DNA from: an uncultured Candidatus Saccharibacteria bacterium
GTDB taxonomy: Bacteria; Patescibacteriota; WWE3; UBA101185; UBA10185
DNA: 60,952 nt
Direction: 5' to 3'
NCBI GenBank assembly: GCA_964540135.1
Contig: CAZILK010000004.1
Span: 1-60,952, forward strand
Of this stretch, positions 2,844 to 56,529 are shown piece by piece. The notes under the pieces were generated by a model. That model did not search any database, was not told the DNA's origin, and saw nothing but the letters and a program-made list of their open reading frames with translations. The translations under genes were made by a program, and so were the position numbers. Numbering within the stretch: position 1 is the first letter of the stretch; the number at the start of each line of letters is the position of its first letter.

Positions 2844-5408
2844 ATGTTCCTATCAAATCTTTTTGATTCAAATGAAAAACAACTAGGTAAAATCCGTCCA
2901 ATTGTAGCTGAAGTTAATACACTTGAAAGCGAGATGCAAAAACTACTACAAGATGAGTTTGTAGCTCAAACAAACGCTTGGAAAGACCAGTTTTCTAAAT
3001 TACAAAAAGAAAAACACGAAGAGCTCTTAAATGAAATACTTCCAAGAGCATACGCTATGGTTCGTGAAGCTTCCGTTCGTACACTTGGTAAAAGACACTA
3101 CGACGTTCAAATTATGGGAGGTGTTGTTCTTCATCAAGGTAAGATTGCTGAGCAAAAAACAGGTGAAGGTAAAACACTTACAGCAACACTCCCTTTGTAT
3201 CTTAATTCATTAACCGGTAGAGGAGTAAGCCTTGTTACGCCAAATGATTACCTTTCAAGACATGGTGCAGGATGGATGGGAACGGTTTACAACTACCTTG
3301 GTGTCTCAGTTGGTGTAATTATGCAAGAGCGAGCTTTTGTATTTGATCCAGACCATGAAAATAACGAATTTGACGATGAGTATGCAACACATCTTCGGGT
3401 TGCAACTAGAAGAGAAGCTTATAACTGCGACATCATTTATGGAACAAATCATGAGTTCGGTTTTGATTATCTTCGCGATAATATGGCAGGAAGTCCTGAC
3501 GAGCTTGTTCAACAAACAGCTAATAAAGAATTTGGCGAACACTTCTTTGCTATTGTTGATGAGGTGGACTCTATTTTAATCGACATGGCGAGAACCCCAC
3601 TTATTATTTCAACAAGTGTCGCTCAAGCAGCAGAGCGTTATTATGACGCTGCCAAAATAGTATCCGGACTTATTAAAGGCATGGATTTTGAAGTCGATGA
3701 GAAATTTCGAACCGCAAATTTAACTGATATTGGTATTCGTAAAGTTGAAAAGCTGCTTAATGTTAAGAATCTATATGAAGAAGATTTTGAGATGGTGCAT
3801 TTAATGGAGCAAGCATTGACTGCAAGAGGACTTTTTGAAAAAGACCGAGACTATATTGTTAAAGATGGCAAGATTGTAATTGTTGATCAGTTTACCGGAA
3901 GGCTTCTTCCTAATAACTCTTTTTCACACGGACTTCATCAAGCAATTGAAGCAAAAGAAGGAGTTGAAATAAGAGAAGAAACAAGGTCTGTAGCTGAAGT
4001 TTCTTATCAAAATTACTTTAGACTTTACGAAAAACTTGCTGGTATGACTGGAACAGCAGTTACTGAAGCCGAAGAGTTTTACAAAATATACAAGCTTGAT
4101 GTTGTTGTTATACCAACAAATAAGGCAGTTAATAGAACCGATCACAATGATCTTGTTTATAAAACAGAGTCTGCAAAATTTACAGCAGCAGCTGACGACA
4201 TTGCAGAACGCAGTAAAAAAGGCCAACCAGTTCTTGTTGGTACAACTTCAGTTGATAAAAGCCAATTACTTCACGAACTACTTTCAAGACGTGGTATTAA
4301 GGCTGAAATTTTAAATGCTAAAAACCATGAAAAAGAAGCAAATATAATCTCTCAAGCTGGAAAAAAAGGAGCAGTTACTGTGTCAACCAATATGGCTGGA
4401 AGAGGTGTTGATATTTTACTTGGTGGAGAAAATGCTGCCCAAGCAGAATACGAAGAGGTTGTAAGACTTGGAGGTCTTCACGTTATTGGAACAGAAAGAC
4501 ATGAATCACGAAGAATTGATAATCAGTTAAGAGGAAGGGCTGGAAGACAAGGCGATCCTGGTTCGTCCAGATTCTATGTTTCATTACAAGATGAATTGAT
4601 GCGTGTTTTTGGTGGAGCACAGATTGAAGGGCTGATGAACCGGTTTGGTATGGAGGATAGCATTCCTTTAGAAGCTGGACTTGTGTCAAAAGCAATTGAA
4701 AATGCACAGAAAAAAGTTGAGAGCATGAATTTTGACCGTCGAAAAAGAGTTGTTGAAATGGACGATGTTATAAATGTTCACAGAAGTGTAGTCTATAAAA
4801 TGCGAAAGCGCATGCTTTTTGCACCAGAAGAAGGTGAGTCTTTTAAGGCGTGGTTTATACCAAAACTTATTGAATTTACACCAGGGTTTGATGTTACAAA
4901 ACACTGGGATACTTTTGAACAAGCGTCAAGTCTTAAGACTTGGCTTTATGTTGTATTTCAAGTTAGCCGTGAGGTTATCGATGTTTTGTGGATGGATCAC
5001 TTAACAGATATGGATAATTTAAGAGAGGGAATTGGTCTTCGTGGTTATGCTCAAAAAGATCCAACAGTTGAATACAAAAATGAAGGGCATGCAAAATTCG
5101 AACGCCTTGTTGGAAATATTTATTCAAATATAGGAGAGAGACTTACACGAATTTCTGTTGAATCAGCAAAGTCAGAAGAGACTGGAGCTTTCTCAAGAAA
5201 TAGACAGTCGTCATTTGATAATTTAAATGTAACTCAAAGTACTTATGAAACAGGCGTAGCTGATGAGGCAGCTCTTATGGGAGCTCCTGTTATTAATAGA
5301 TCTGGTTATAAAGTTGAACCTGTTGTATCTGGTGTTAAAAAAGTTGGCAGAAATGAACCATGTCCTTGTGGAAGTGGTAAGAAATACAAGAATTGCCACG
5401 GTAAATAA
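2844..5408 (+). CDS. secA: preprotein translocase ATPase SecA
   Basis: [37 protein letters not shown]-terminal [18 protein letters not shown]. Confidence 0.99.
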
Positions 5409-39504: not shown

Positions 39505-39524
39505 ATTTGTTATACTATAGAGCG

Positions 39525-40898
39525 ATGTTTAAAAACATATATGTAAGATTAGCTTTAATAAGTGCCGTATTCACATTGAGTGTACTTATTGTTTTACCTC
39601 GTGTTCCGATTGTTATCAAAAGATGGGGACTTAATGTAGACTCATTTATCGGTGGCTACATCTTTAAATTACCTGGTGGAAAAGTCGTTGATTTAAGTAC
39701 ATTTAAAAAAGGACTTGATCTTGAGGGCGGAGTTCGTATTACTCTTGGTGCTAAGATGGCAGGAATACCCGCCTCAGAACGTCAGAACGCTTTAGATTCT
39801 GCTAAAGAAGTTATCTCAAGAAGAATAAACTTGCTTGGAGTTTCTGAGCCCAACATTCAAACTGTTAAAGTTGGTGATAGCTACAGGATCGTAGCTGAGA
39901 TTCCTGGTGTTTCTGATGTAGATCAAGCAGTTAAACTTATTGGGCAAACAGCGCAACTTAAGTTTAAGACTTTGAAAAAGCCTGAGGATTGGAATCAAGA
40001 AAAGTTCGTAGAATATTACACCAATCCTGATCTGTGGAAAGACACAGACTTAACAGGCTCTGACTTAAAAGGAGCTTCAGTTGTATTTTCAGGAGATACT
40101 CCAGGAACTCAGAATTTACCACAAGTGCAGTTAAGGTTTTCAACAAAAGGCAGAGAGAAGTTTTCAAAACTTGCGAAAGCAAACATTGATAGACCAGTAG
40201 CACTCTTTTTAGATCAAGATAAATCCCCATTATCTATGCCAACAATAAGTCCTGATCTTGCAAAAGGCGTTCTGCAAGACCCTGTTATAACAGGCAATTT
40301 TGATGTTGAGACTGCAAATAATTTAAGTTTACAAATCAGAGCAGGTGCATTGCCAATACCAGTTGAAGTACTTGAACAAAAAACTGTTGGTGCAACACTT
40401 GGTCTTGAATCGGTTAAAAAAAGCTTTATTGCAGGAATAGTGGGGCTTCTACTTGTAATGCTTTTTATGATTTATGCTTATGGTAGATACGGTATCTTGG
40501 CAGACATAGCGCTTTTTATTTACGCTCTTGTAATACTTGCAATATTTAAGCTTGTACCGGTTGTTCTAACCCTTCCTGGTATTGCCGGTATTATTCTGTC
40601 AATTGGTGTTGCAACAGATGCTAATATTTTAGTCTTCGAAAGAGTCAGAGAAGAAAAAAGATGGGGTGCTCCTACCTCACTTGCAATAAAGTTTGGGTTT
40701 GAGAGAGCGTGGAACTCAATTAAAGATTCAAACATGGCATCTCTCATATCAGCATTAATTTTGTTTTATTTCGGAACTGGTGCTATTAGAGGATTTGCAT
40801 TAACACTGGCAATTGGTATTGGTGTATCACTATTCTCATCAATTTTTGTTGTCCAGACTCTAATTAAGGTGTTTGGTTCATCAGGAAAATCCGTATGA
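39525..40898 (+). CDS. secD: protein translocase subunit SecD
   Basis: GLDLEGG, RINLLGVSEP, GALP, DANILVFERVREE; start at ATG 39525. Confidence 0.97.
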   Translation: MFKNIYVRLALISAVFTLSVLIVLPRVPIVIKRWGLNVDSFIGGYIFKLPGGKVVDLSTFKKGLDLEGGVRITLGAKMAGIPASERQNALDSAKEVISRRINLLGVSEPNIQTVKVGDSYRIVAEIPGVSDVDQAVKLIGQTAQLKFKTLKKPEDWNQEKFVEYYTNPDLWKDTDLTGSDLKGASVVFSGDTPGTQNLPQVQLRFSTKGREKFSKLAKANIDRPVALFLDQDKSPLSMPTISPDLAKGVLQDPVITGNFDVETANNLSLQIRAGALPIPVEVLEQKTVGATLGLESVKKSFIAGIVGLLLVMLFMIYAYGRYGILADIALFIYALVILAIFKLVPVVLTLPGIAGIILSIGVATDANILVFERVREEKRWGAPTSLAIKFGFERAWNSIKDSNMASLISALILFYFGTGAIRGFALTLAIGIGVSLFSSIFVVQTLIKVFGSSGKSV

Positions 40899-41797
40899 AT
40901 GTTTTAAAATATAAATTCCATTACTTAATCTTTTCTCTTTTAATAATGCTTCCTGGTGCCTTTTTCCTCGTTACCGAAGGACTTAAACTTGGGATTGATT
41001 TCACTGGCGGTTCTGTTAGTGTTTATAGTTTTGTAAAGGACGCAAAGATTGCGGATTTTGAAAAAGCATACACATCAAACGGAGTTGGTGATCCTAAAGT
41101 TTCACTTGTTAATAACGAAATAACTGTTAGAAGTAAAATAATAGATACCTCAAAAAACGCCAAGATTGTTACTGATCTGAAAAAGGAATACCCAAAGCTT
41201 GTAGTTAAATCGTTTGAGACAGTAGGACCAACAGTTGGAGGAGAAACAACCAGAAAAGCGTTGATGTCTGTTTTGATTTCTTCTTTTGTCATCATGCTTT
41301 ATATTGCCTATTCGTTTAAAGATATTCCCAAACCTTATTCAAGCTTGAAATTTGGTATCTCAGCAATAATTGCGATGCTTCATGACGCTTTTGTGGTTAT
41401 TGGAACATTTTCTATTCTAGGTCATTATTTAAATGTTGAAGTTGATGCACTCCTGATAACCGCTCTTCTTACAATCATTGGGTTTTCAGTTCATGACACA
41501 ATTGTTGTATTTGATCGCATTAGAGAGAACTTAAATAAACTCTCAAAATCGTCCACCTTTGAAGAGGTTGCTAATTACTCACTGGTTGAAACACTGAACA
41601 GGTCATTAACCACATCACTAACAGTTGTTATAACTTTATTTGCACTTGTAGTTCTTGGTGGAAGCAGCATTCGCTATTTTGTAATAGCTCTTCTTGTTGG
41701 TATAGTTTCAGGAACTTATTCAAGTATATTTACAGCTACCCCAATTCTTGTACTTTGGGAAGCCTACTCCGGAAAACACTCAAAAAAGAAAAAGTAA
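40895..41797 (+). CDS. secF: protein translocase subunit SecF
   Basis: GIDFTGG, HDTIVVFDRIREN, GTYSSIF. Confidence 0.97.
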   Translation: MNVLKYKFHYLIFSLLIMLPGAFFLVTEGLKLGIDFTGGSVSVYSFVKDAKIADFEKAYTSNGVGDPKVSLVNNEITVRSKIIDTSKNAKIVTDLKKEYPKLVVKSFETVGPTVGGETTRKALMSVLISSFVIMLYIAYSFKDIPKPYSSLKFGISAIIAMLHDAFVVIGTFSILGHYLNVEVDALLITALLTIIGFSVHDTIVVFDRIRENLNKLSKSSTFEEVANYSLVETLNRSLTTSLTVVITLFALVVLGGSSIRYFVIALLVGIVSGTYSSIFTATPILVLWEAYSGKHSKKKK

Positions 41798-41801
41798 GTT
41801 C

Positions 41802-43445
41802 ATGAAAAAATGGAATATCATAAAACACTACTCCCCAGAACTTGATGTTGTCGCAAGTATTTTGGAAAACAGAGGACTTGATACTAAAGAGAAGATTCAT
41901 GAATTTTTAAATCCCCCGTCACTTCAATCATACATTGCTGCTATGCCCATTGAGTTTAAAACAAGTCTCAAGAATTCACGGGACATGGTTTTTAAGGCAA
42001 TAGAAGACTCAGTACCTATTCTAATTTACGGAGACTACGATTCAGACGGAGTATCTGCTACAGCACTACTATACAGCACACTAACGAAGACTTTAGGTTA
42101 CTCCAAATGTTCGTACTTTATCCCAAATCGGTTTGAGCACGGCTATGGTTTATCAGTTAAAGCGTTTGATGAAGCATACACTTCTTTAAAAGAAAACTTT
42201 GGGGAGAGTCCTTATTATCTGCTTATTACTGTTGATACAGGCATAACTGCTGTTGAGGAAATAGCCCATGCTCAAAAGAATAACTTTAAAACAATCATTA
42301 CCGATCATCACCAAAAACCAAATCCACTACCTGAGGCTAATGTAATAGTTTGGTCTGGAGAAACAGTTGGCTGCGGATTATCTTGGATACTTTGTACCGC
42401 ACTTGGCTTAAAAGACTTAAGTGGGATAGATCTTGTCGCTCTTGCAACAGTAACCGATCTTCAGGCTCTAGTAGGATTTAGCAGAACAGCTGTAATCAAA
42501 GGGCTTGAGAGTATGAATAACAAACCAAGAGTTGGCATTAAGAAGCTTTTGGATATAGCTGGTAAGTCAAAGCAAATTACAGTCTATGACCTTGGGTGGG
42601 TAATTGGGCCTAGAATTAATGCACTTGGGAGAATGGACCATGCTATCAAAGGAGTTGAGCTTTTAACAACAGAGGATGAAGAGAAGGCGGTTGAGATTGC
42701 AGGTCTCTTACAAGACACTAATTTGCTTAGGCAAGATGAGACAGAGAAGATGTATGATCTTGCTCAGGTTGAAACAAAGCCTGAAGATAAGATTATTATC
42801 TCTGTAAATCAAGAATATCATGAAGGAATCATCGGCCTTGTAGCTTCAAAACTTGTTCAAAAATACTACAAACCGGTAATTGTCATTTCTCATGATGGGA
42901 CTGTGGGTAAAGGCAGTGTGAGATCAATTCCTGGCATAAACATTATTGAGATTTTAAGGCAATTTGAGTCTGATTTTGAAAAACTAGGCGGGCACCCTAT
43001 GGCTGCTGGGTTTAGCATAAAGCTCACTAACATTAAGACACTTGAGACAAAGCTTGTTGAGTATATGAATGCTCACTATACAGAAGCTGATTTTGTTCCC
43101 TTTATTGATGTTGATGTTGAGATACCTGTAAGTCTAATTACACTTGATCTTTATACTCAGGTAAGTAAACTCATGCCTTATGGTAATGGTAATCCAGAAC
43201 CAGTATTTTGTGTTAGAGATCTGAAAGTAACAGCTGCAAATACTGTTGGAAGAGATTTAAAGCATGTTTCATTTACATTTCTGGCTGATGGTAAAAACTA
43301 CAAAGGCATATATTTCAACGCACCATCTGACGTATTAACTATAAAGGCGGGAAGTCTAATTGATGTAGTGTTTTGTCTTTCAAGAAATGACTATAATCAA
43401 AAAACCTCAATAGACTTGCTTATTAAAGATATACTGCTAAAATAA
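41802..43445 (+). CDS. recJ: single-stranded DNA exonuclease RecJ
   Basis: GDYDSDG, TVDTG, TDHH, GPRINA.GR, GGHPMAAG; start at ATG 41802. Confidence 0.96.
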   Translation: MKKWNIIKHYSPELDVVASILENRGLDTKEKIHEFLNPPSLQSYIAAMPIEFKTSLKNSRDMVFKAIEDSVPILIYGDYDSDGVSATALLYSTLTKTLGYSKCSYFIPNRFEHGYGLSVKAFDEAYTSLKENFGESPYYLLITVDTGITAVEEIAHAQKNNFKTIITDHHQKPNPLPEANVIVWSGETVGCGLSWILCTALGLKDLSGIDLVALATVTDLQALVGFSRTAVIKGLESMNNKPRVGIKKLLDIAGKSKQITVYDLGWVIGPRINALGRMDHAIKGVELLTTEDEEKAVEIAGLLQDTNLLRQDETEKMYDLAQVETKPEDKIIISVNQEYHEGIIGLVASKLVQKYYKPVIVISHDGTVGKGSVRSIPGINIIEILRQFESDFEKLGGHPMAAGFSIKLTNIKTLETKLVEYMNAHYTEADFVPFIDVDVEIPVSLITLDLYTQVSKLMPYGNGNPEPVFCVRDLKVTAANTVGRDLKHVSFTFLADGKNYKGIYFNAPSDVLTIKAGSLIDVVFCLSRNDYNQKTSIDLLIKDILLK

Positions 43446-43459
43446 TTAAGAATTCAAAA

Positions 43460-43611
43460 TGCCGTAAAAAAGAAAGTGACACTTTTTTGGTTAAGACCTG
43501 GCAGATGGTAGGAAATGACCATCCGGGAATGCCCGTTATAGCTGTGAACAAGATAAAGACAGGGTGGCACCGTCCACCTAAGGACCCCGTCAAAGAAGAC
43601 GGGGTATTTTT
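43460..43611 (+). ncRNA. T-box riboswitch (transcriptional), probable Asp (GAC) specifier
   Basis: Antiterminator GGG-TGGCACC-GTCC-acctaa-GGAC-CCC (43562-88), overlapping terminator, CCGTTA motif at 43533-38, upstream of aspS. Confidence 0.85.
43584..43611 (+). terminator. T-box terminator
   Basis: ACCCCGTC-aaagaa-GACGGGGT followed by ATTTTT. Confidence 0.88.
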
Positions 43612-43638
43612 GTATTTAAATTAAGAAATCGGAGGTAT

Positions 43639-44940
43639 ATGGAAGAACTAACAAGAATACATGTAGCACAGCTACAGGAGAATGTTGGTAAAGTAGTTAA
43701 AATTGCAGGATTTGTACACGCAATAAGGAATCAAGGAAGTATTAAGTTTCTACTTATTCGTGATGTTAGCGGTATAGCTCAGAGTGTGGTACTCAAGACA
43801 TCTGAAGCTTTTTCTAAACTTGAGGAAGTAACACTTGAGTCAGTAGTTGAGCTTACAGGACTTGCCAAAGCTGAAAAACAAGCCCCAGGAGGCTTTGAGC
43901 TTGAGGCTCAGGAGCTAACTATACTATCCAAAGCTTTACCCTCTCTACCAATACCGGTTGTTGTTGAGAAATCTGGAGAAGAGGTTGACATTTCAAAAAG
44001 ACTGGACTGGAGATGGCTTGACTTGCGTCGTGAAGAAAGTCTGCGTATTTTTAAGGTTTGGACAGAGCTTGAAAAAGGGTTTAGAGAATATATGGAAAAA
44101 GCTCAGTACATGCAGGTTTATGGGCCTTCTTTTATGAGCTCGGCTAGTGAGTCAGGTGCCGAAGTCTTTGAGGTGAAGTATTTTGATAGGAAAGCATATC
44201 TTGCTCAGTCCCCTCAATTCTATAAACAAATGGCAATGAGCTCAGGCTTTGAAAGAGTCTTTATGACAGGTCCGGTTTTTCGTGCTGAGCTTTCTTTCAC
44301 GACAAGGCATTTAACCGAATTTACTGGCTGGGATTTTGAGCTCTCTTATATAAATTCACATCATGATGTAATGGATGAGCTGGAGAATTTTTTAGTTTCT
44401 GGTTTTAAGAAAATAGAAGCTGCTGGGCTTGTGAAAGATATAGTGATACCTGAAAAACCATTTCCACGCCTAACTATGCGTGAAGTAAAAGCTTTGTTAG
44501 CCGAGGAGGGTGTTCGCAGTGAGAAAGAGCACGATGTTAGTCCTGAAGAAGAAAGAGCCTTGCACGGAGTTATTGCTAAAAAATATGGGCATGATTTCGT
44601 GTTTATTACTGACTGGGATATCTCTGCCAGGCCTTTCTATCACATGAGGCATGCTGATAACAACTCACTTACAAAAAGCTTTGACTTATTATACAGAGGT
44701 CTTGAAATAGTAACTGGAGCTCAAAGAGAGCATCGACATGATGTTTTAACAACTCAAGCACTTGAAAAAGGTATGGTACTTTCAGATATTGATTACTATA
44801 TTAACTTCTTTAAATACGGTTGTCCGCCTCATGGAGGAGTTGGTATTGGACCCGGAAGAATTGTTATGCAACTACTTGGGCTCTCAAGCATTAAAGAGGC
44901 AACATATTTGCCAAGAGATGTTAAGAGGTTGACACCTTAG
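43639..44940 (+). CDS. aspS: aspartyl-tRNA synthetase, archaeal-like short type with non-discriminating signature
   Basis: 433 aa without GAD insert; YLAQSPQFYKQ, FRAE, GCPPHGG; His27 and Pro83. Confidence 0.9.
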   Translation: MEELTRIHVAQLQENVGKVVKIAGFVHAIRNQGSIKFLLIRDVSGIAQSVVLKTSEAFSKLEEVTLESVVELTGLAKAEKQAPGGFELEAQELTILSKALPSLPIPVVVEKSGEEVDISKRLDWRWLDLRREESLRIFKVWTELEKGFREYMEKAQYMQVYGPSFMSSASESGAEVFEVKYFDRKAYLAQSPQFYKQMAMSSGFERVFMTGPVFRAELSFTTRHLTEFTGWDFELSYINSHHDVMDELENFLVSGFKKIEAAGLVKDIVIPEKPFPRLTMREVKALLAEEGVRSEKEHDVSPEEERALHGVIAKKYGHDFVFITDWDISARPFYHMRHADNNSLTKSFDLLYRGLEIVTGAQREHRHDVLTTQALEKGMVLSDIDYYINFFKYGCPPHGGVGIGPGRIVMQLLGLSSIKEATYLPRDVKRLTP

Positions 44941-47156: not shown

Positions 47157-47200
47157 TCGTTTTTATGTTACCACATCGCCAGTTATGTTAAAATCCTACC

Positions 47201-48664
47201 ATGGTAACACGAACACGCATGGCTCCAAGCCCAACCGGTGAATTTCACATCGGTGGTATGAGAACATTGCTTTACAACTATGCCTTAGCTAAAAGGGATG
47301 GCGGTGCCTTTATATTAAGAATTGAGGATACCGATAGAGAAAGACACGTTGAGGGAGCTACAGAAAGACTGATTGAGGTGATTAAAGAATATGGTTTAAA
47401 TTGGGACGAGGGGCCTGATATTGGCGGGCCTAATGAGCCATACATACAGTCGCAAAGACTTGAAATTTACACTAAATACGCACAGGAGCTAATAAGCAAC
47501 GGGCATGCGTATTACTGCTTTTGTACAAAAGAACGCCTGGACACACTGCGTGAAGAACAAAGAGCTCAAGGGTTAGCGGCTACAAGATACGATAAGTTGT
47601 GTACACATTTAACTAAAGAAGAGGTCGCTCAAAAGCTTTCAGAAAAAACCTCATATGTCATAAGATTAAATGTACCTGCAAATGAGATCGTAAGCTTTAC
47701 TGACGAGATCTTAGGAACTATTTCTTTTCCAACAAACGATATAGATGACCAAGTTTTACTTAAGTCTGACGGCTATCCAACATATCATTTAGGTGTTGTT
47801 ATTGATGATCACCTGATGGGTATAAATGTGATTATGCGGGGTGTTGAGTGGTTGCCATCAACGCCAAAACATATTTTATTATATAGGGCCTTTGGTTGGA
47901 ATCTCCCAAGATATGGGCATCTTCCGTTACTTAAAGAAATTGGTGAGAACAAAAAATTATCAAAAAGAGTCGGAGCTGTTGGTTCCGTTGAGTTTTTAAA
48001 CGAGGGGTACTTACCTGAGGCTTTACTTAACTTCCTTATGTTTCTTGGTTGGAATCCCGGAACCGAAAAAGAGATCTATACTTTGGAGGAGTTTATAGCT
48101 GATTTCTCACTTGATAAAGTCCATAAAACAGATCTTGTTGTCTTTGATCGCGACAAGCTTTCTTGGTATAACGGCTATTATATTCGCAATTTAGAAACTC
48201 CGGATCTCTTTAACAGACTTACCGTCTGGGCCGAGAAGTTTAGTAAGAACCTATTACTAAGCGATAACCAGAACACAAACATCAAGGTACTTGAACTTGT
48301 TAAAGAGAGGATGAAGACTCTCTCAGATTTTACTTCACTTACAGCCTACTTTTTTAAAGCCCCAAGTATTGACCTGGAATTACTTCTAAAACAAGTAGGG
48401 GATAAGGATCGTTCCAAAGAAATATTCCAAAGCTTCTTAGCTATTTATGAAGAAGTTTCAGCACAAGATTGGAACAGCAAATTTCTGGATGAGCTGTCTC
48501 ACAGTGTTTTAGAAAAAAATGGCTATAAACCAAAAGAAGCTTTCATGACTTTAAGAGTCGGAGTTACAGGGTCAACTACAACCCCACCACTTTTTGATGT
48601 GCTTGAAGTACTAGGGCTAAAAGAGACAATTTTTCGTATGAAAGAAGTTCTTAAAATGCTATAG
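47201..48664 (+). CDS. gltX: glutamyl-tRNA synthetase
   Basis: RMAPSPTGEFHIGG (HIGH), LRIEDTD, KKLSKR (KMSKS). Confidence 0.97.
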   Translation: MVTRTRMAPSPTGEFHIGGMRTLLYNYALAKRDGGAFILRIEDTDRERHVEGATERLIEVIKEYGLNWDEGPDIGGPNEPYIQSQRLEIYTKYAQELISNGHAYYCFCTKERLDTLREEQRAQGLAATRYDKLCTHLTKEEVAQKLSEKTSYVIRLNVPANEIVSFTDEILGTISFPTNDIDDQVLLKSDGYPTYHLGVVIDDHLMGINVIMRGVEWLPSTPKHILLYRAFGWNLPRYGHLPLLKEIGENKKLSKRVGAVGSVEFLNEGYLPEALLNFLMFLGWNPGTEKEIYTLEEFIADFSLDKVHKTDLVVFDRDKLSWYNGYYIRNLETPDLFNRLTVWAEKFSKNLLLSDNQNTNIKVLELVKERMKTLSDFTSLTAYFFKAPSIDLELLLKQVGDKDRSKEIFQSFLAIYEEVSAQDWNSKFLDELSHSVLEKNGYKPKEAFMTLRVGVTGSTTTPPLFDVLEVLGLKETIFRMKEVLKML

Positions 48665-48672
48665 TTTTAGTA

Positions 48673-50226
48673 ATGTCTGCCCTGTTTGCCAAAAAAAATA
48701 CACTTCTTGATGCTTTTGCTCCACAATACTTTGATACTTGCATTATAAAATTTGGCGATGCAAAAATTAAAGATCTAATTAAAGGCAAATTTCCAGCAAT
48801 CCAATACACTCTTTCAGGTTATGATATTTCTGAAGTAACCCAGGACGATAAATTGCAGCTTGTAACTATTCTCTTTCACCTTGATGTTAATGAGAACGGT
48901 GAAAGACAGGCAATCACCAATCTTGAAGATATTATAACTAAAGTTAAAGATAGAATAGGTGCTGACAAAGAGTTTAACGAGCTACTCTTAAAACTCCCTG
49001 AGGGAGTTTTTGCTGTAAATAAGCTGAAGATCATCCCAAGAGAAGAACTTGAAAAACAATTTCAACTTGTTGCAGCGGAACTTGTGAAAACAAGAGAAGC
49101 ACTAAATACAAGTGTTTCAAAACAAACCCTTGATCTGGCTGCTGAAAAAGATGTTTTGAAAGTGACCCTGTACAACACAAGCGATGGAGTTTTTGCACTT
49201 GATAAAGACGGTAAGGTTATAACGTTTAATAAAAAGATGGAAGAGTTAACGGGGTTTTCTTCCGATGAAGCTAAAGGAAAACCTTCAGATGAGATTGTGA
49301 GACTTTTTGATGATACCTTCCCTCTTGATAGCGCAAAATACAGCCCTGTTGTAGACAATGTTACTGAAAGAAATGTTTATTCAAATAACAAAGTCACACT
49401 TGTTTCAAAAACCGGAACTAAAAGGTATGTTCGGATGGTTAGCGCTGCTCTAAATGAACCAGCTGAAAAAAATCTTGGAAGTATCGTAACTCTTACCGAT
49501 ATCACAAAAGAGATTGAACTTGAGAATATGAAAATTGATTTTGTATCGATCGCAGCGCACGAACTAAGAACGCCATTAACCTCAATTAGAGGGTACCTTG
49601 AGTTATTAAACTCAAAGCTTGGAACATCGCTTGATCCTGAATCACAAACTTATCTTGAGAAAGTAACAGTTAGTGCTGATCAATTGCACATCTTAATTGA
49701 GAACTTACTTAACATTTCAAGAATTGAAAAAGGCAGTCTTATACTAAATAAAAAACCTGAAAAGATTGAGGCTGCAATCACTTATGTGCTTTCAAACTTT
49801 GCGGCAATCGCTAGTCAAGCTGGAGTTACTCTTAACTATATTCCGCCAAAAGCACAAATGCCTGATGTGTTTGTTGATCATACGATGATTGTTGAGGTGC
49901 TCTCAAATCTTGTAGACAACGCAATAAAATATAATAAAAAAGATGGCTCGATTACAATTACAACTGAGCTTACTGATGACAAAGTTATAACCTATGTGAA
50001 AGACACAGGTGTTGGAATTGCTGCTGAATCACTTCCACATATTTTCAAAAAGTTTTATAGGACGTCAACAAACGCTCTAACTCAAGGGCGAAAAGGCACA
50101 GGACTTGGTTTGTTTATTTCCAAACAAATTGTAGAATTACATGGAGGACAAATTACATTAACCAGTGTTCAAGGTGAGGGTACTACATTTAGTTTTACCT
50201 TACCTGTTTTTAAAGAGGCAAACTAA
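48673..50226 (+). CDS. soluble PAS-HisKA-HATPase sensor kinase with unrecognised N-terminal domain
   Basis: AHELRTPL, NLVDNAIKY, DTGVGI, GTGLGL; no TM helix. Confidence 0.93.
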   Translation: MSALFAKKNTLLDAFAPQYFDTCIIKFGDAKIKDLIKGKFPAIQYTLSGYDISEVTQDDKLQLVTILFHLDVNENGERQAITNLEDIITKVKDRIGADKEFNELLLKLPEGVFAVNKLKIIPREELEKQFQLVAAELVKTREALNTSVSKQTLDLAAEKDVLKVTLYNTSDGVFALDKDGKVITFNKKMEELTGFSSDEAKGKPSDEIVRLFDDTFPLDSAKYSPVVDNVTERNVYSNNKVTLVSKTGTKRYVRMVSAALNEPAEKNLGSIVTLTDITKEIELENMKIDFVSIAAHELRTPLTSIRGYLELLNSKLGTSLDPESQTYLEKVTVSADQLHILIENLLNISRIEKGSLILNKKPEKIEAAITYVLSNFAAIASQAGVTLNYIPPKAQMPDVFVDHTMIVEVLSNLVDNAIKYNKKDGSITITTELTDDKVITYVKDTGVGIAAESLPHIFKKFYRTSTNALTQGRKGTGLGLFISKQIVELHGGQITLTSVQGEGTTFSFTLPVFKEAN

Positions 50227-50734: not shown

Positions 50735-51823
50735 ATGACAATAACTAAAATTGACGAACTAAAAAAGAATAAAAATTTAGCCCTTACTTCTGCTCTTGAT
50801 CAAATTGAGAAAGCGTATGGTAAAGGATCGATAATGCGACTTGGCGATCGTGAAGTTGATAAGAATATTCAAATAATTCCAACAGGCTCAATTGCTCTTG
50901 ATATAGCTCTTGGTATTGGCGGAGTTCCTCGTGGGCGTATAGTTGAAATATATGGCCCTGAGTCATCAGGTAAAACTACCCTTGTTCAACATATTATTGC
51001 AGAGGCTCAAAAGCTTGGTGGGGTTGCAGCCTTAATTGATGCAGAACATGCTTTTGATCCATCATATGCTGAAAAAACTGGTGTAGATATTAAGGAACTT
51101 TTAGTCTCCCAACCGGATATGGGTGAGCAAGCTCTTGAGATTGCCGAAACTTTAATAAGATCTAATGCTGTTGATGTTATTGCAATTGACTCAGTTGCAG
51201 CACTTGTACCAAAAGCTGAAATTGAAGGGGATATTGGAGACTCCCATATTGCACTTCAAGCAAGACTTATGAGCCAAGCTCTTCGTAAAATTACCGGAGC
51301 AGTTAGTAAATCAAGAACAACAGTTATCTTTACAAACCAGATAAGATCGAAAATTGGTGTCATGTTTGGAAATCCTGAAACAACAACTGGTGGTAACGCA
51401 TTAAAGTTTTATGCATCTGTCAGGATGGATATTAGAAGAGTTCAGACCATTGGAACTCCGCAAGAACCAATGGGTATAAAAGTTAGAGTTAAAGTCGTTA
51501 AAAATAAAATGGCACCACCTTTTAAAGTTGCAGAGTTTGATATCATGTTTGCGGAGGGTATTAGCAAAGAAGGAAGCCTTGTTGATGTTGCAGCCAACTT
51601 TGGGATTGTTAAAAAGAGTGGAGCTTGGTATGAGTTTAACGGAGTAAAGATCGGCCAAGGCAGAGAAGCTGCAAAACAATTCTTAAAAGACGACAAAAAG
51701 CTTTTTGCTGAAATAGATAAAAAAGTTAGACTAGAGATCGCAACTAAAGGAACAGACATTCAAAAGGTTGGAACACAGTCTGACGACTTGGGAATTACCG
51801 AAGAAGTCTCTGTTGAAGAGTAG
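50735..51823 (+). CDS. recA: recombinase RecA
   Basis: [36 protein letters not shown]. Confidence 0.99.
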
Positions 51824-52562: not shown

Positions 52563-54113
52563 ATGGATTCTGGTACATTAATAGTAGTTTTAGTCGCTGT
52601 TCTAATAACAGCTGGTTTAGCTTATCTTTTATCTACCCGTAAAAAGTCGGTAATTTCTGTTCCCGAACAAGCGTCTTTTCAGGCGCCAGTAGCTGTTTCT
52701 GCAAACGATCCTGCAATACTTGAAGCAAAAGCAAAAGCCCAAGAGCTTGTACTTGATGCAAAACGCCAAGCAATAAGCATAGAATCAGAAGCTGAAGAAA
52801 AAGCACGAAGGATTCGCGAACGAACTACAGAGCTTGAAAAAGATGTTGCTATAAAAAGAGCTGAAGTAGAGTCTCGGGAGCGAGATCTTGCTCAAAAAGC
52901 CAAGAGCGTAAAAGAGATCAAAGAGAGACTTGAGAAACAAAAAGAAGAACTCGAAGATTTAATTAGAAGTCATCAATCCAGTCTTGAAAGAGTAGCTCAA
53001 CTAACAAAAGATGAAGCTAAGAAGCTCTTACTTGAGTCTTTTGATAAAGAACTTGCTGCCGAAAAAGGCAAGAGAGTACGACAGCTTGAAGAAGACGTTA
53101 AAAAAGAAGCTGATGAAAAATCCCGAGAAATTTTAATTGACGCTATGCGTTTTGGGTCAACTGATTATGTTGTTGAATATACGACCTCAAGAGTAAAGCT
53201 TGGCGAAGAAGATATGAAGGGTAGGATCATTGGTAAAGAAGGTCGTAACATCAAGCTTTTTGAAGAGCTTACAGGTGTTGAACTTGATCTTGATGCTTCT
53301 CCAGGAGAAGTTGTTGTTTCATGTTTTGATCCAGTAAGAAGAGAGATTGCAAAAATAGCTCTTGAAAGACTTCTTAAAGACGGTCGTATCCAACCATCCC
53401 GAATTGAAGAAATTGTTGAGAAAACAAATCATGAAATAGATCAGATCATTTACAAAGAGGGCGATAATCTTTGTCACAAAGTTGGTATTTATGATTTACC
53501 AAAAGACATAGTTGCGATGCTTGGTCGGTTCAAGTACAGATTCTCGTACGGTCAGAATATGATCGAGCATACACTCGAGGAAACTCGCATCGGTGTTGCT
53601 ATAGCTCACGAGCTTGGTGTTAACATTGATATCGTTAAACTTGGCTGTTTACTTCATGATATTGGAAAAGTTGTTAATGATGAAGAAGGTACACACGTCC
53701 AACTTGGTGCCGAACTTCTTAAGAAATATAAAATAGATGAGCGGGTTGTAAACTGTGTTGCAGAACACCATGAAGACAGACCTTTTAGCTCAATTGAATC
53801 AAGTGTAGTTCATTTGGCAGACCACATTAGCGGTGCAAGACCTGGTGCTAGGTCTGAGGATTACGATTCATACGCCAAACGCATGAAAGCTCTTGAAGAG
53901 GCTGCTACGTCTTTTGAGGGTATAGATAAAGCTTATGCAGTGTCTGCAGGCAGGGAGGTTCGAGTGTATGTTGTACCTGATCGTGTAGATGATGATTCAA
54001 CAGCTTACCTTGCTCGTGAAATTGCAAGAAAAATAGAGCTTGAACAAACATACCCAGGTGTAGTAAAAGTAACTGTAATAAGAGAAACAAGAGTTTCGGA
54101 AACAGCTAAGTAA
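52563..54113 (+). CDS. rny: ribonuclease Y
   Basis: N-terminal TM, coiled coil, KH (GRIIGKEGRNI), HD (LLHDIGK), SGARPGAR. Confidence 0.98.
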   Translation: MDSGTLIVVLVAVLITAGLAYLLSTRKKSVISVPEQASFQAPVAVSANDPAILEAKAKAQELVLDAKRQAISIESEAEEKARRIRERTTELEKDVAIKRAEVESRERDLAQKAKSVKEIKERLEKQKEELEDLIRSHQSSLERVAQLTKDEAKKLLLESFDKELAAEKGKRVRQLEEDVKKEADEKSREILIDAMRFGSTDYVVEYTTSRVKLGEEDMKGRIIGKEGRNIKLFEELTGVELDLDASPGEVVVSCFDPVRREIAKIALERLLKDGRIQPSRIEEIVEKTNHEIDQIIYKEGDNLCHKVGIYDLPKDIVAMLGRFKYRFSYGQNMIEHTLEETRIGVAIAHELGVNIDIVKLGCLLHDIGKVVNDEEGTHVQLGAELLKKYKIDERVVNCVAEHHEDRPFSSIESSVVHLADHISGARPGARSEDYDSYAKRMKALEEAATSFEGIDKAYAVSAGREVRVYVVPDRVDDDSTAYLAREIARKIELEQTYPGVVKVTVIRETRVSETAK

Positions 54114-55293: not shown

Positions 55294-56529
55294 TTATTTG
55301 GAGTAATTTGGCTCGCGCTGAATTTTAACAAGAAGCTCTGGATCGCTCTCGTTGTGGATTTGTGATGAGGTGAGCTCTTTTGTTGGGAGTGTAAACCAAA
55401 AAGTTGTTCCTTGATTCTCGCCTTTTGATGACACACCTACCTGTCCTCCCATATGTTCAATGTAGAGTTTAACAATATATAACCCAAGGCCTGTTCCACC
55501 GGATTCAGCAACGGTTTGATACGAGTAGTTTAGCCTGCCAAACTTATGAAACAATCTCTTCATATCCTCAGGAGCAATGCCTTTACCGGTATCTTCAATT
55601 GAAACTTTAACAAAATCATCCGGTATTGATTCAGCAGTTACAGTAATACCGCCTTGAGGGGTGAATTTAATTGAGTTGCCGATGAGGTTAATCATTATTT
55701 CATTAAGCCTCATCTTGTCTGCATAAACTTCAGGAATATCTGCCGGGACGTCCCATTTACAAAAAAGATTCTTCTCCTTACACCTGACATCAAAGTCTCC
55801 TAGAGTGTCTTGTATGGCCTCAAGAAGGCCTGTTTTCTCTATCTTTATCTCCATTCTACCCTGCTCAATTCGCGAGATACTAAGCATGTCGTTAATTAGG
55901 GCAAGCATTCTTTCGGTACCTTGAGCAGCCTTTTGAACATACTCCATTTGTTTTGGAGTTAGGTTACCGCCTTTACTGGCTCCAAGCATCCAAAGATAGC
56001 TTTTTATAATGGTCATTGGAGTTCTAAGTTCGTGGGAGGTTATAGATATGAAGTCATCTTTGGCTTTTTCAAGCTGCTTTTCTTTTGTGACATCGACCAT
56101 GGTAACAAGACATTCTTGTTTGCCTTGAGTTGGGTTAATAATTGAGGAGTGGACATTAACAATATAGTCGCTGGTCGCGCCTTTCAGTATCAAGCCGTCC
56201 ATTTTTTTCCTATCGTTAGTTTGAACAAAGCAAAACTCCTTTAAATCAACCGGGGCTCCTTTATCATTTGTTAATGCGATAACTTGTGGGGCAGGGAGGT
56301 TTAAAACCTCATCCAGTTTTTTATTTAGTATCTTTTCAAGAGTGTTATTGAAGAGTGTTATGTTAAACTCTTCGTCAACAGCAAACACTGCTTCAGAAAG
56401 TCCGTAGAGAAGCTGCTCAGCGCGTCTTCTGGCATCTAACAGCTCAAGGTTCTTCTTGTAAATTTCTTCAGCAAAAGATGCGTTATTTGTTACATTATTA
56501 ACAACTTTTTTTTCTGGGGTAGAGAGCAT
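55294..56529 (-). CDS. soluble PAS-HisKA-HATPase sensor kinase
   Basis: SHELRTPM, NLIGNSIKF, DTGKGI, GTGLGL; no TM helix. Confidence 0.93.
   Translation of the reverse strand: MLSTPEKKVVNNVTNNASFAEEIYKKNLELLDARRRAEQLLYGLSEAVFAVDEEFNITLFNNTLEKILNKKLDEVLNLPAPQVIALTNDKGAPVDLKEFCFVQTNDRKKMDGLILKGATSDYIVNVHSSIINPTQGKQECLVTMVDVTKEKQLEKAKDDFISITSHELRTPMTIIKSYLWMLGASKGGNLTPKQMEYVQKAAQGTERMLALINDMLSISRIEQGRMEIKIEKTGLLEAIQDTLGDFDVRCKEKNLFCKWDVPADIPEVYADKMRLNEIMINLIGNSIKFTPQGGITVTAESIPDDFVKVSIEDTGKGIAPEDMKRLFHKFGRLNYSYQTVAESGGTGLGLYIVKLYIEHMGGQVGVSSKGENQGTTFWFTLPTKELTSSQIHNESDPELLVKIQREPNYSK

What the first reader, a model, noticed from the sequence alone, without database searches (positions are those of the whole stretch)
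43460..43611. Transcriptional T-box riboswitch with an apparently ultrashort Stem I controlling aspS
Seen: a textbook antiterminator (GGG-UGGCACC-GUCC/GGAC-CCC) mutually exclusive with an 8-bp GC terminator plus U tract. There is a CCGUUA Stem IIA/B motif and a Stem II-like hairpin GAUGGU/ACCAUC (43504-23). Only ~45 nt lie upstream of Stem II, folding as AAAAAAG-AAAGUGACA-CUUUUUU. Two candidate GAC (Asp) specifiers are present, at 43478-80 (apical loop) and 43495-97. Established: canonical transcriptional T-boxes have a ~100-nt Stem I that grips the tRNA elbow, while ultrashort Stem I is known from actinobacterial ileS translational T-boxes. Inference: a hybrid class, in a lineage not usually associated with T-boxes or amino-acid biosynthesis.
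Basis: partly seen in the sequence, partly recalled or inferred. Interest (0 to 1): 0.85.

Follow-up and report, generated by a model that had tools for sequence, protein, structure and literature searches.

The report
Minimal T-box tRNA sensor before aspS
The leader of an aspartyl-tRNA synthetase gene in an uncultured ultrasmall (CPR/Patescibacteria) bacterium is a real but stripped-down T-box riboswitch. It appears to stop or release transcription by reading tRNA-Asp, without the long arm that such transcription-controlling switches are thought to need.

Summary
Window 43460-43611 carries a T-box core (GGG-UGGCACC-GUCC/GGAC-CCC), an overlapping 8-bp terminator with a U tract, a CCGUUA F-box, a short Stem II hairpin and a 7-bp Stem I hairpin.

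The downstream gene is an archaeal-type, non-discriminating AspRS. The element belongs to a family: 42 leaders upstream of this gene in CPR genomes and metagenomes share the architecture, with strong covariation.

A covariance model built without the window or its two closest relatives recovers it at 97 bits (E about 1e-25). It is the only significant hit in the 61 kb.

The Stem I apical loop ends in GAC-A (27 leaders), AAC-A (13) or GGCC (2). GAC and AAC match the two tRNAs this enzyme charges, so the specifier is 43478-43480, not 43495-43497.

Promoter-like sites lie 6-25 nt upstream of Stem I in most leaders, and recJ is the immediate neighbour in only 8 of 41 related loci. A long Stem I is therefore excluded. 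Rfam's T-box model misses the window entirely and scores relatives at 25-58 bits, below the 93-bit threshold.

Apical-loop specifiers are known from actinobacterial translational ileS T-boxes. Here the read-out is an intrinsic terminator. Verdict: a new variant of a known kind, in a new lineage. Function is untested.

The parts
43407..43443 (+). Promoter-like region inside the 3' end of recJ. Two overlapping candidates: TCAATA(43407-12)-17-TATACT(43430-35) and TTGCTT(43416-21)-16-TAAAAT(43438-43). Predicted start is about 43442-43452, i.e. at most 18 nt before the leader's first helix.
   Evidence: Read and scored. The window's own match is weak (8.5 of 12). The placement is supported mainly by the family: 27 of 34 leaders score at least 9, at the same distance from the stem base (shuffles: mean 5.8, max 13). 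Not mapped experimentally.
43460..43503 (+). Stem I domain as a three-way junction. The basal helix UGCC 43460-63 / GGCA 43500-03 encloses the specifier hairpin and a small extra hairpin. It takes the place of the C-stem plus K-turn seen in most relatives.
   Evidence: Basal helix covaries (AU, UA, GC, CG, GU types; helix 1). The layout is shared with L001, L002, L004 and L098. There are no tandem G-A pairs in the window.
43466..43488 (+). Stem I specifier hairpin: AAAAAAG 43466-72 pairs with CUUUUUU 43482-88, with the 9-nt apical loop AAAGUGACA at 43473-81.
   Evidence: The four pairs next to the loop are 96.9% paired across the 42 leaders, and three of them change on both sides (helix 2). 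RNAalifold predicts the same hairpin without the window.
43478..43481 (+). Specifier codon GAC (Asp, 43478-80) followed by the conserved purine A43481.
   Evidence: The last four loop nucleotides are GAC-A/C/G in 27 leaders, AAC-A in 13 and GGCC in 2 of 42. GAC and AAC are the codons of the two tRNAs that a non-discriminating AspRS charges.
43489..43498 (+). Extra hairpin GGU-UAAG-ACC.
   Evidence: A hairpin sits here only in the window subgroup, and its sequence differs each time: CGGA-GAAA-UCCG in L001, UCCG-GUA-CGGG in L004, CCG..CGG in L098. The GAC is not conserved, so it is rejected as specifier.
43504..43523 (+). Reduced Stem II: the 6-bp helix GAUGGU/ACCAUC capped by the 8-nt purine-rich loop AGGAAAUG. 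There is no S-turn internal loop.
   Evidence: All six pairs change on both sides (helix 3). Among the 14 high-scoring type-A leaders, 10 have the loop AGGAAAUG, L001 has AAGAAAAG and three (L015, L020, L085) have longer Stem II inserts. More distant relatives have the canonical GAA.../AGUAGA S-turn here, which aligns to Rfam's Stem II.
43524..43542 (+). Stem IIA/B element. IIA is CGG 43524-26 paired with CCG 43533-35. The F-box CCGUUA is 43533-38. The possible IIB pairs are G43531-C43542 and C43532-G43541.
   Evidence: IIA is 98.3% paired (helix 4). For IIB, two G-C pairs are near-invariant and the third pair reads AU in 7, UA in 7, CG in 1 and unpaired in 15 leaders, with U-U in the window. 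The pseudoknot is plausible but only weakly supported.
43543..43561 (+). A-rich linker (UGUGAACAAGAUAAAGACA) with no Stem III hairpin.
   Evidence: Some relatives (L034, L091, L056, L045 and others) insert one or two hairpins here. The AAC at 43547-49 is not conserved.
43562..43588 (+). Antiterminator (discriminator). A1 is GGG/CCC, the T-box bulge UGGCACC is 43565-71, A2 is GUCC/GGAC and the loop is ACCUAA.
   Evidence: A1 is 93.2% paired and A2 98.2% paired, and all four A2 pairs change on both sides (helices 5 and 6). The folding energy is only -7.4 kcal/mol. GGGTGGNACCG occurs once in the window.
43584..43611 (+). Intrinsic terminator: ACCCCGUC/GACGGGGU with loop AAAGAA, then AUUUUU(GUAUUU). 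Its 5' arm is the 3' strand of the antiterminator.
   Evidence: -15.8 kcal/mol. An equivalent hairpin with a U-rich tail is found in 34 of 42 leaders.
43639..44940 (+). Regulated gene: archaeal-type non-discriminating aspartyl-tRNA synthetase (aspartate--tRNA(Asn) ligase), 433 aa. Its SD, GGAGG, is at 43631-35.
   Evidence: NF003483 scores 475.4 bits (cutoff 353) and TIGR00458 scores 382 bits.

Best explanation
This is a T-box riboswitch that controls the non-discriminating aspS gene by transcription attenuation.

Proposed mechanism, step by step:
- Transcription starts about 10-18 nt upstream of the first helix (inferred from promoter-like sites).
- The nascent leader folds a very short Stem I whose 9-nt apical loop displays the Asp codon GAC (43478-80) followed by a purine.
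- The anticodon GUC of tRNA-Asp pairs with this codon (inferred).
- A reduced Stem II hairpin with the purine-rich loop AGGAAAUG, together with the IIA/B element, is proposed to buttress the codon-anticodon helix from the side. Stem II does this in actinobacterial short-Stem-I T-boxes (inferred by analogy).
- If the bound tRNA is uncharged, its 3' end, presumed to be GCCA, pairs with UGGC of the 7-nt T-box bulge (43565-68). This stabilises the weak antiterminator, RNA polymerase reads through, and aspS is made.
- If the tRNA is charged or absent, the much stronger terminator (43584-43611) forms and transcription stops.

Shown here: the sequence elements, their mutual exclusivity, their covariation across 42 leaders, the codon pattern, the absence of a long Stem I, and homology to the T-box family. 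Not shown: tRNA binding, charge sensing and the transcription start.
For: - The T-box core, bulge and overlapping terminator are present.
- A model built without the window recovers it at 97 bits, E = 1.4e-25, the only significant hit in 61 kb.
- 42 leaders upstream of the same gene in CPR genomes and metagenomes share the architecture.
- Covariation is strong: 22 of 25 pairs with double changes, 94.5% paired, score 0.693 against 0.20. RNAalifold independently gives the same helices.
- The apical loop ends in GAC-A (27), AAC-A (13) or GGCC (2). GAC and AAC are the two cognate codons of a non-discriminating AspRS, with C at the third position as is typical of T-box specifiers (PMC7583486).
- More distant members match RF00230 at 25-58 bits, E down to 3.7e-10 (1.6e-12 on the short region). 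The K-turn, Stem II S-turn, IIA/B, Stem III and antiterminator all align, and 74 Stem I positions are deleted.
- Promoter-like sites lie just upstream in most leaders; 27 of 34 score at least 9 (shuffles: mean 5.8, max 13).
- The upstream gene is variable.
- A terminator is present in 34 of 42 leaders.
- An apical-loop specifier on a short Stem I supported by Stem II has a structural precedent in the M. tuberculosis and N. farcinica ileS T-boxes (PMC7583486).
Against: - There is no functional data.
- Rfam RF00230 does not match the window even at E <= 10, so T-box membership rests on transitive homology plus motif anatomy.
[quoted passage not shown] - The window's own promoter match is weak (8.5 of 12).
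- No tRNA-Asp or tRNA-Asn gene was available from these organisms to check the anticodon and discriminator base.
- Two leaders carry GGC instead of GAC.
- The IIB pseudoknot has only two G-C pairs in the window.
Confidence: 0.8

Rival explanations
1. It is a canonical T-box whose full-length (~100 nt) Stem I is formed with sequence from the 3' end of recJ. The 'ultrashort' appearance would be an artefact of looking only at the intergenic region.
For: recJ ends only 15 nt before the first helix. The window's own promoter match is weak, so read-through from recJ cannot be excluded.
Against: - RF00230 finds nothing in 43300-43700 at E <= 10.
- recJ is the immediate neighbour in only 8 of 41 related loci, yet every leader starts at the same helix.
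- Promoter-like sites lie 6-25 nt upstream of that helix in most leaders.
- In L056 the Rfam alignment itself deletes 74 Stem I positions.
- The specifier codon pattern sits in the apical loop.
Confidence: 0.03
2. It is a decaying or non-sensing T-box remnant. The terminator and promoter would act as a fixed attenuator, or as the recJ terminator, with tRNA sensing lost along with the K-turn, S-turn, Stem III and distal Stem I.
For: - The window lacks several parts regarded as functionally important (PMC7583486).
- Two relatives (L020, L085) carry GGC and a disrupted K-turn.
- 8 of 42 leaders lack a clear terminator.
- CPR genomes are reduced.
Against: - Helices are maintained by compensatory changes across deeply diverged lineages whose AspRS is only 56-73% identical.
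- The T-box bulge UGGNACC, the loop AGGAAAUG and the F-box are near-invariant.
- The codon is held to GAC or AAC in 40 of 42 leaders.
- A fixed strong terminator in front of an essential single-copy synthetase would be harmful unless it is relieved.
Confidence: 0.1
3. The switch works as proposed but reads tRNA-Asn, or both tRNA-Asp and tRNA-Asn, because the enzyme serves both. GAC could pair with the Asn anticodon GUU through a first-position G-U wobble.
For: - The enzyme is the non-discriminating type.
- 13 of 42 family members carry AAC at the same loop position.
- The bulge N is C or U only, compatible with the G73 that tRNA-Asp and tRNA-Asn share in well-studied bacteria (own knowledge, not tested here).
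Against: - GAC is a perfect match only to tRNA-Asp.
- T-boxes normally demand three Watson-Crick pairs (PMC7583486).
- The clean GAC/AAC split suggests that each leader is tuned to one tRNA.
Confidence: 0.07

Closest known systems
Actinobacterial translational ileS T-boxes with ultrashort Stem I (M. tuberculosis, M. smegmatis, N. farcinica; Sherwood et al. 2015; structures 6UFG and 6UFM as cited in PMC7583486)
   Same: - Stem I is reduced to a basal helix, a K-turn (in most CPR relatives), a 4-bp helix and an apical loop carrying the specifier followed by a purine.
- There is no elbow-binding double T-loop.
- Stem II and an F-box-containing IIA/B element follow directly.
- The 7-nt UGGNACC bulge is the same.
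   Different: - The read-out is an intrinsic terminator rather than a Shine-Dalgarno-sequestering helix.
- The gene is non-discriminating aspS, not ileS.
- The lineage is CPR/Patescibacteria.
- The window's subgroup further replaces the K-turn with a three-way junction, shrinks Stem II to a hairpin loop without an S-turn, and has no Stem III.
Canonical class I transcriptional T-box (Rfam RF00230; e.g. B. subtilis tyrS)
   Same: - T-box sequence and antiterminator/terminator competition.
- F-box.
- Codon-plus-purine specifier that matches the regulated synthetase.
- Default OFF state.
   Different: - About 74 model positions of Stem I are absent (specifier internal loop with S-turn, AG bulge, distal loop).
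- The window scores below any reportable Rfam hit, and relatives reach 25-58 bits against a gathering score of 93.
glyQS-type T-boxes
   Same: A naturally reduced transcriptional T-box of comparable overall length.
   Different: The reduction is the opposite one. glyQS keeps the long Stem I and drops Stem II and IIA/B. This family keeps Stem II and IIA/B and drops the long Stem I.
Clostridium acetobutylicum Asn-specific T-box controlling the non-discriminating aspS and gatCAB operon (Saad et al. 2012 and 2013; recalled from memory, not read here)
   Same: A T-box governs a non-discriminating AspRS and can use an Asn codon, as 13 of the 42 CPR leaders do.
   Different: That element has a conventional long Stem I and occurs in Firmicutes.

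Membership tests
T-box riboswitch (RF00230 sensu lato) | T-box sequence forming an antiterminator with a 7-nt bulge UGGNACC between helices A1 and A2 | tested here: met
   GGG-UGGCACC-GUCC...GGAC-CCC at 43562-88. A1 and A2 covary across 42 leaders.
T-box riboswitch (RF00230 sensu lato) | Alternative, mutually exclusive terminator (or sequestrator) that uses the 3' strand of the antiterminator | tested here: met
   Terminator at 43584-43605 plus U tract. -15.8 against -7.4 kcal/mol. Present in 34 of 42 relatives.
T-box riboswitch (RF00230 sensu lato) | Specifier codon in Stem I that matches the regulated gene's amino acid, followed by a purine | tested here: met
   GAC-A at 43478-81. Family tally: GAC 27, AAC 13, GGC 2. 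The gene is a non-discriminating AspRS.
T-box riboswitch (RF00230 sensu lato) | Long Stem I with AG bulge and distal loop (double T-loop) that binds the tRNA elbow | tested here: not met
   Stem I is 7 bp plus a 9-nt loop. Promoter-like sites lie directly upstream. The Rfam alignment of relative L056 deletes 74 model positions. There is no RF00230 hit in 43300-43700.
T-box riboswitch (RF00230 sensu lato) | K-turn (GA motif) at the base of Stem I | tested here: not met
   The window has no tandem G-A pairs, and a three-way junction takes their place. Most relatives do have NNN-GA...GA, and this aligns to the Rfam K-turn in L056.
T-box riboswitch (RF00230 sensu lato) | Stem II with S-turn, followed by the IIA/B pseudoknot with F-box | tested here: inconclusive
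   The F-box CCGUUA and helix IIA are present and conserved. The IIB pairs are weakly supported. Stem II is a plain hairpin with loop AGGAAAUG and has no S-turn in the window, although distant relatives have a canonical S-turn.
T-box riboswitch (RF00230 sensu lato) | Stem III preceding the antiterminator | tested here: not met
   A 19-nt unstructured A-rich linker lies at 43543-61. Some relatives have hairpins here.
T-box riboswitch (RF00230 sensu lato) | Score at or above Rfam's gathering threshold (93 bits) | tested here: not met
   No hit in the window and none in 20 relatives at gathering. Relatives score 25-58 bits with E down to 1e-10.
T-box riboswitch (RF00230 sensu lato) | Uncharged-tRNA-dependent antitermination, with covariation between bulge position N and tRNA base 73 | not testable with these tools
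   No tRNA-Asp or tRNA-Asn gene occurs in the window or in the 160 loci. N is C or U throughout.
Class II (translational, actinobacterial ileS) T-box | Ultrashort Stem I with the specifier in an apical loop | tested here: met
   The definition comes from PMC7583486.
Class II (translational, actinobacterial ileS) T-box | Expression platform that sequesters the Shine-Dalgarno sequence | tested here: not met
   The SD GGAGG at 43631-35 lies 26 nt beyond the terminator stem and takes no part in either fold. An intrinsic terminator is present instead.

The most novel reading that the evidence does not exclude
CPR bacteria carry a natural family of co-transcriptional T-boxes that make no contact with the tRNA elbow. 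[quoted passage not shown] If they really sense tRNA charge during transcription, one of two things must hold. Either the accepted kinetic argument, that transcriptional T-boxes need the long Stem I to capture tRNA in time, is not general. Or these organisms compensate by slow or pausing polymerase, high tRNA concentration, or an unknown helper.
Probability: 0.5. Interest if true: 0.75.

Novelty: new variant of a known kind. Interest (0 to 1): 0.66.

Why it matters
Three things would follow if the function is confirmed.

- **Kinetics.** The field's working rule is that T-boxes acting on transcription need the long, elbow-gripping Stem I for fast tRNA capture, and that only the slower translational ones can do without it (PMC7583486, section 6.2). 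A conserved family that pairs an ultrashort Stem I with a terminator is a natural counter-example. It makes the rule testable with one small RNA.
- **Lineage.** It would extend T-box regulation to Patescibacteria/CPR. I found no report of T-boxes, or of other natural riboswitches, in this group. The current Rfam model, and so pipelines that depend on it, cannot see these leaders.
- **Design.** The family offers a graded natural series of T-box reduction: with or without K-turn, S-turn and Stem III, and with Asp or Asn codons. That is useful for defining the minimal tRNA-sensing core and for engineering compact tRNA-responsive switches.

Tried and rejected
- **Second GAC (43495-97) as specifier.** Rejected. 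It lies in a small hairpin that exists only in the window subgroup and differs in sequence in each member.
- **AAC at 43547-49 in the linker as an Asn specifier.** Rejected. It is not conserved.
- **Long Stem I reaching into recJ.** Rejected.
- **Single-sequence MFE fold with GAC in a triloop.** Set aside in favour of the 9-nt loop that covariation supports.
- **Rfam.** No family at gathering in the window or in 20 relatives. The weak window hits at E of 0.4-8 (RAGATH-30, microRNAs, lncRNAs) are chance.
- **tRNA-Asp and tRNA-Asn genes, to test anticodon and discriminator pairing.** None in the window or in 160 related loci.
- **IIB pseudoknot.** Only modest support, so it is left as plausible.
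- **Other copies of the element.** None in the 61-kb window, including upstream of gltX. In about 0.9 Mb of related CPR DNA, hits occur only in front of aspS, except in L154, where the leader precedes an HD-domain gene that lies upstream of aspS.
- **Literature.** Sherwood et al. 2015 (PMC4313828) and Vitreschak et al. 2008 (tried as PMC2271356) are not held. I therefore could not check whether any actinobacterial short-Stem-I leader with a terminator was already noted there.
- **Failed call.** One search was a malformed structure string and gave no result.

Full report
**What is there.** The 193-nt gap between recJ (41748-43445; TIGR00644, 431 bits) and a 433-aa gene (43639-44940) holds the element. 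The gene is an archaeal-type, non-discriminating aspartyl-tRNA synthetase: NF003483 aspartate--tRNA(Asn) ligase scores 475 bits against a cutoff of 353.
- The antiterminator is GGG(43562-64)-UGGCACC(43565-71)-GUCC(43572-75)...GGAC(43582-85)-CCC(43586-88).
- The terminator ACCCCGUC/GACGGGGU (43584-43605) plus AUUUUUGUAUUU reuses the antiterminator's 3' strand.
- The F-box CCGUUA is at 43533-38.
- The hairpin GAUGGU/ACCAUC is at 43504-23.
- The hairpin AAAAAAG/CUUUUUU (43466-88) has the loop AAAGUGACA.

The terminator is worth -15.8 kcal/mol and the antiterminator only -7.4. That is the usual T-box logic of default OFF. A basal helix, UGCC 43460-63 with GGCA 43500-03, encloses the first hairpin plus a small extra hairpin at 43489-98.

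**Is it more than chance, and is it a family?** Using the AspRS protein I fetched 80 genome loci and 80 metagenome loci. All named records are Patescibacteria/CPR: WWE3, Paceibacterota, Nomurabacteria and generically labelled 'Saccharibacteria' MAGs. The best identity is 73%. Many of these loci carry GGUGGNACC within 150 nt upstream of aspS.

A covariance model (R1) built from ten close leaders finds exactly one hit in the 61-kb window. It also finds full-length hits in 41 other loci. All but one lie directly upstream of aspS. In L154 the leader precedes an HD-domain gene upstream of aspS.

On the 42-leader alignment, 94.5% of cells pair (shuffles 66.5%). 22 of 25 pairs show changes on both sides. 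The covariation score is 0.693 against 0.20 for shuffles (0 of 500 reach it) and at most 0.15 when partners are slid.

That alignment was fitted to my structure, so I repeated the test blind. A MAFFT alignment of ten leaders, excluding the window and its two nearest relatives, was folded by RNAalifold. It returned the same six helices. The model built from it (R2) finds window 43457-43592 full-length at 97.1 bits, E = 1.4e-25, with no other significant hit.

**Is it a T-box?** Rfam's RF00230 does not match the window at gathering, or even at E <= 10 on a 401-nt slice. It matches none of 20 relatives at gathering.

The more distant family members are recognisable, though. I call these type B: they have an S-turn Stem II and often a Stem III. 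RF00230 scores them at 58.4, 56.3, 51.2, 42.4, 37.1 and 24.8 bits, with E down to 3.7e-10. All are below the 93-bit threshold.

The alignment for L056 shows why. The K-turn, Stem II S-turn, IIA/B, Stem III and antiterminator all align, but 74 model positions of Stem I are replaced by 4 nt. R1 links the window's type A leaders to these type B leaders at E down to about 1e-15. T-box membership therefore rests on anatomy plus transitive homology.

**Which codon, and how short is Stem I?** In all 42 leaders Stem I is a basal 3-bp helix, usually a K-turn (NNN-GA...GA), a 4-bp helix and an apical loop. The loop's last four nucleotides are GAC-A/C/G in 27 leaders, AAC-A in 13 and GGCC in 2. GAC and AAC are the codons for the two tRNAs that a non-discriminating AspRS aminoacylates, and both end in C as T-box specifiers typically do (PMC7583486). 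This identifies 43478-80 as the specifier and A43481 as the conserved 3' purine.

A long Stem I is excluded on three grounds.
- Promoter-like -35/-10 pairs end 6-25 nt upstream of the basal helix in most leaders. 27 of 34 score at least 9 (shuffles: mean 5.8, max 13). The window's own match is weak.
- recJ is the immediate neighbour in only 8 of 41 related loci, yet the leaders all begin at the same helix.
- Rfam finds no Stem I motifs upstream.

**Read-out.** 34 of 42 leaders have a hairpin that begins inside the antiterminator 3' strand and is followed by a U-rich tail. Eight are unclear. In the window the SD (43631-35) is free in both folds. The family is therefore predominantly transcriptional.

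**What is unusual about the window's subgroup.** Relative to its own family, the window (with L001, L002, L004 and L098) has no K-turn, and a three-way junction with an extra hairpin stands in its place. Stem II is a bare 6-bp hairpin. Its 8-nt loop AGGAAAUG is kept in most type A leaders and may retain the purine string of the S-turn (inference). There is no Stem III. The IIB pseudoknot has only two G-C pairs, and family-wide support for it is modest.

**Mechanism proposed.** See Best explanation. The steps shown are the sequence elements, their exclusivity, covariation, the codon pattern, the short Stem I and the homology. The steps inferred are the transcription start, tRNA-Asp binding, lateral support by Stem II and IIA/B, charge sensing at the bulge, and termination in vivo.

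[quoted passage not shown] The explanation offered is the need for fast co-transcriptional tRNA capture (PMC7583486). A 2024 paper repeats the contrast (PMC11297988).

Surveys place T-boxes in Firmicutes, Actinobacteria, Chloroflexi, Deinococcus-Thermus and a few Proteobacteria (PMC2494555). TBDB collected translational T-boxes by searching Actinobacteria, and the rest mainly from sequence collections based on the Rfam model (PMC7778990). Four full-text searches combining T-box terms with CPR, Patescibacteria or metagenome terms found no report of such elements.

The Stem I design is therefore not new. The combination with a terminator, the further reductions, the gene and the lineage are new as far as I can tell. 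One caveat: I could not read Sherwood et al. 2015, whose abstract, as I recall it, says 'many' rather than all of the actinobacterial leaders are translational.

**Verdict.** Novelty: a new variant of a known kind. Interest is moderate to high, because it contradicts a stated design rule and gives a compact natural system to test it. It is tempered by the complete lack of functional evidence and by the existing precedent for short Stem I's.

Noticed in passing
L020:2774-2954 and L085:1103-1248: Two related leaders upstream of aspS read GGC (a Gly codon) where all the others read GAC or AAC. Both K-turn GA dinucleotides are also replaced. GGC could still pair with anticodon GUC through a central G-U. 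Alternatively these switches are decaying.
   Followed up: partly
L154:555-664 and downstream ORF: The same T-box type (GAC specifier, with terminator) sits in front of a 197-aa HD-domain protein (Pfam HD_3, 84 bits; YfbR-like) that precedes aspS. A very weak second hit (12 bits) lies directly before aspS. This looks like an operon variant.
   Followed up: partly
window 47157-48664: A second synthetase gene, gltX (TIGR00464, 489 bits), lies 44 nt from a divergent ORF and has no T-box. In this window the T-box is specific to aspS.
   Followed up: yes
L035, L112, L117, L120, L136 (leaders about 2759-2927, 1259-1427, 1260-1428, 900-1071 and 1256-1427): A subgroup with Asn codons has the T-box bulge UGGCAAC instead of UGGNACC, and GUA instead of GGA on the K-turn 3' strand. 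L155 has UGGCAAA and L091 has UGGUAUC.
   Followed up: no
window 43476-43482 and family apical loops: GAC-type loops read (G/C)U-GAC-A-C, the same layout as an anticodon loop (U33, triplet, purine 37). In type A the invariant GUGAC would be complementary to positions 34-38 (GUCAC) of E. coli tRNA-Asp, recalled from memory. Asn-type loops read CA-AAC-A-C and do not fit this. No CPR tRNA was available to test it.
   Followed up: no
L028:2806-2903, L078:353-455, L029:2800-2912: Some leaders are shorter still. L028 goes from Stem I almost directly to the antiterminator, with no Stem II or IIA/B. L078 lacks Stem II. Several of these also lack a clear terminator.
   Followed up: no
window 1-60952: There is no tRNA gene (ARAGORN) and no Rfam family at gathering anywhere in the 61 kb. 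Genes annotated in passing: secA 2844-5408, secD and secF 39507-41797, recA 50735-51823, RNase Y 52563-54113, and two PhoR/WalK-like histidine kinases at 48673-50226 and 55294-56529.
   Followed up: partly
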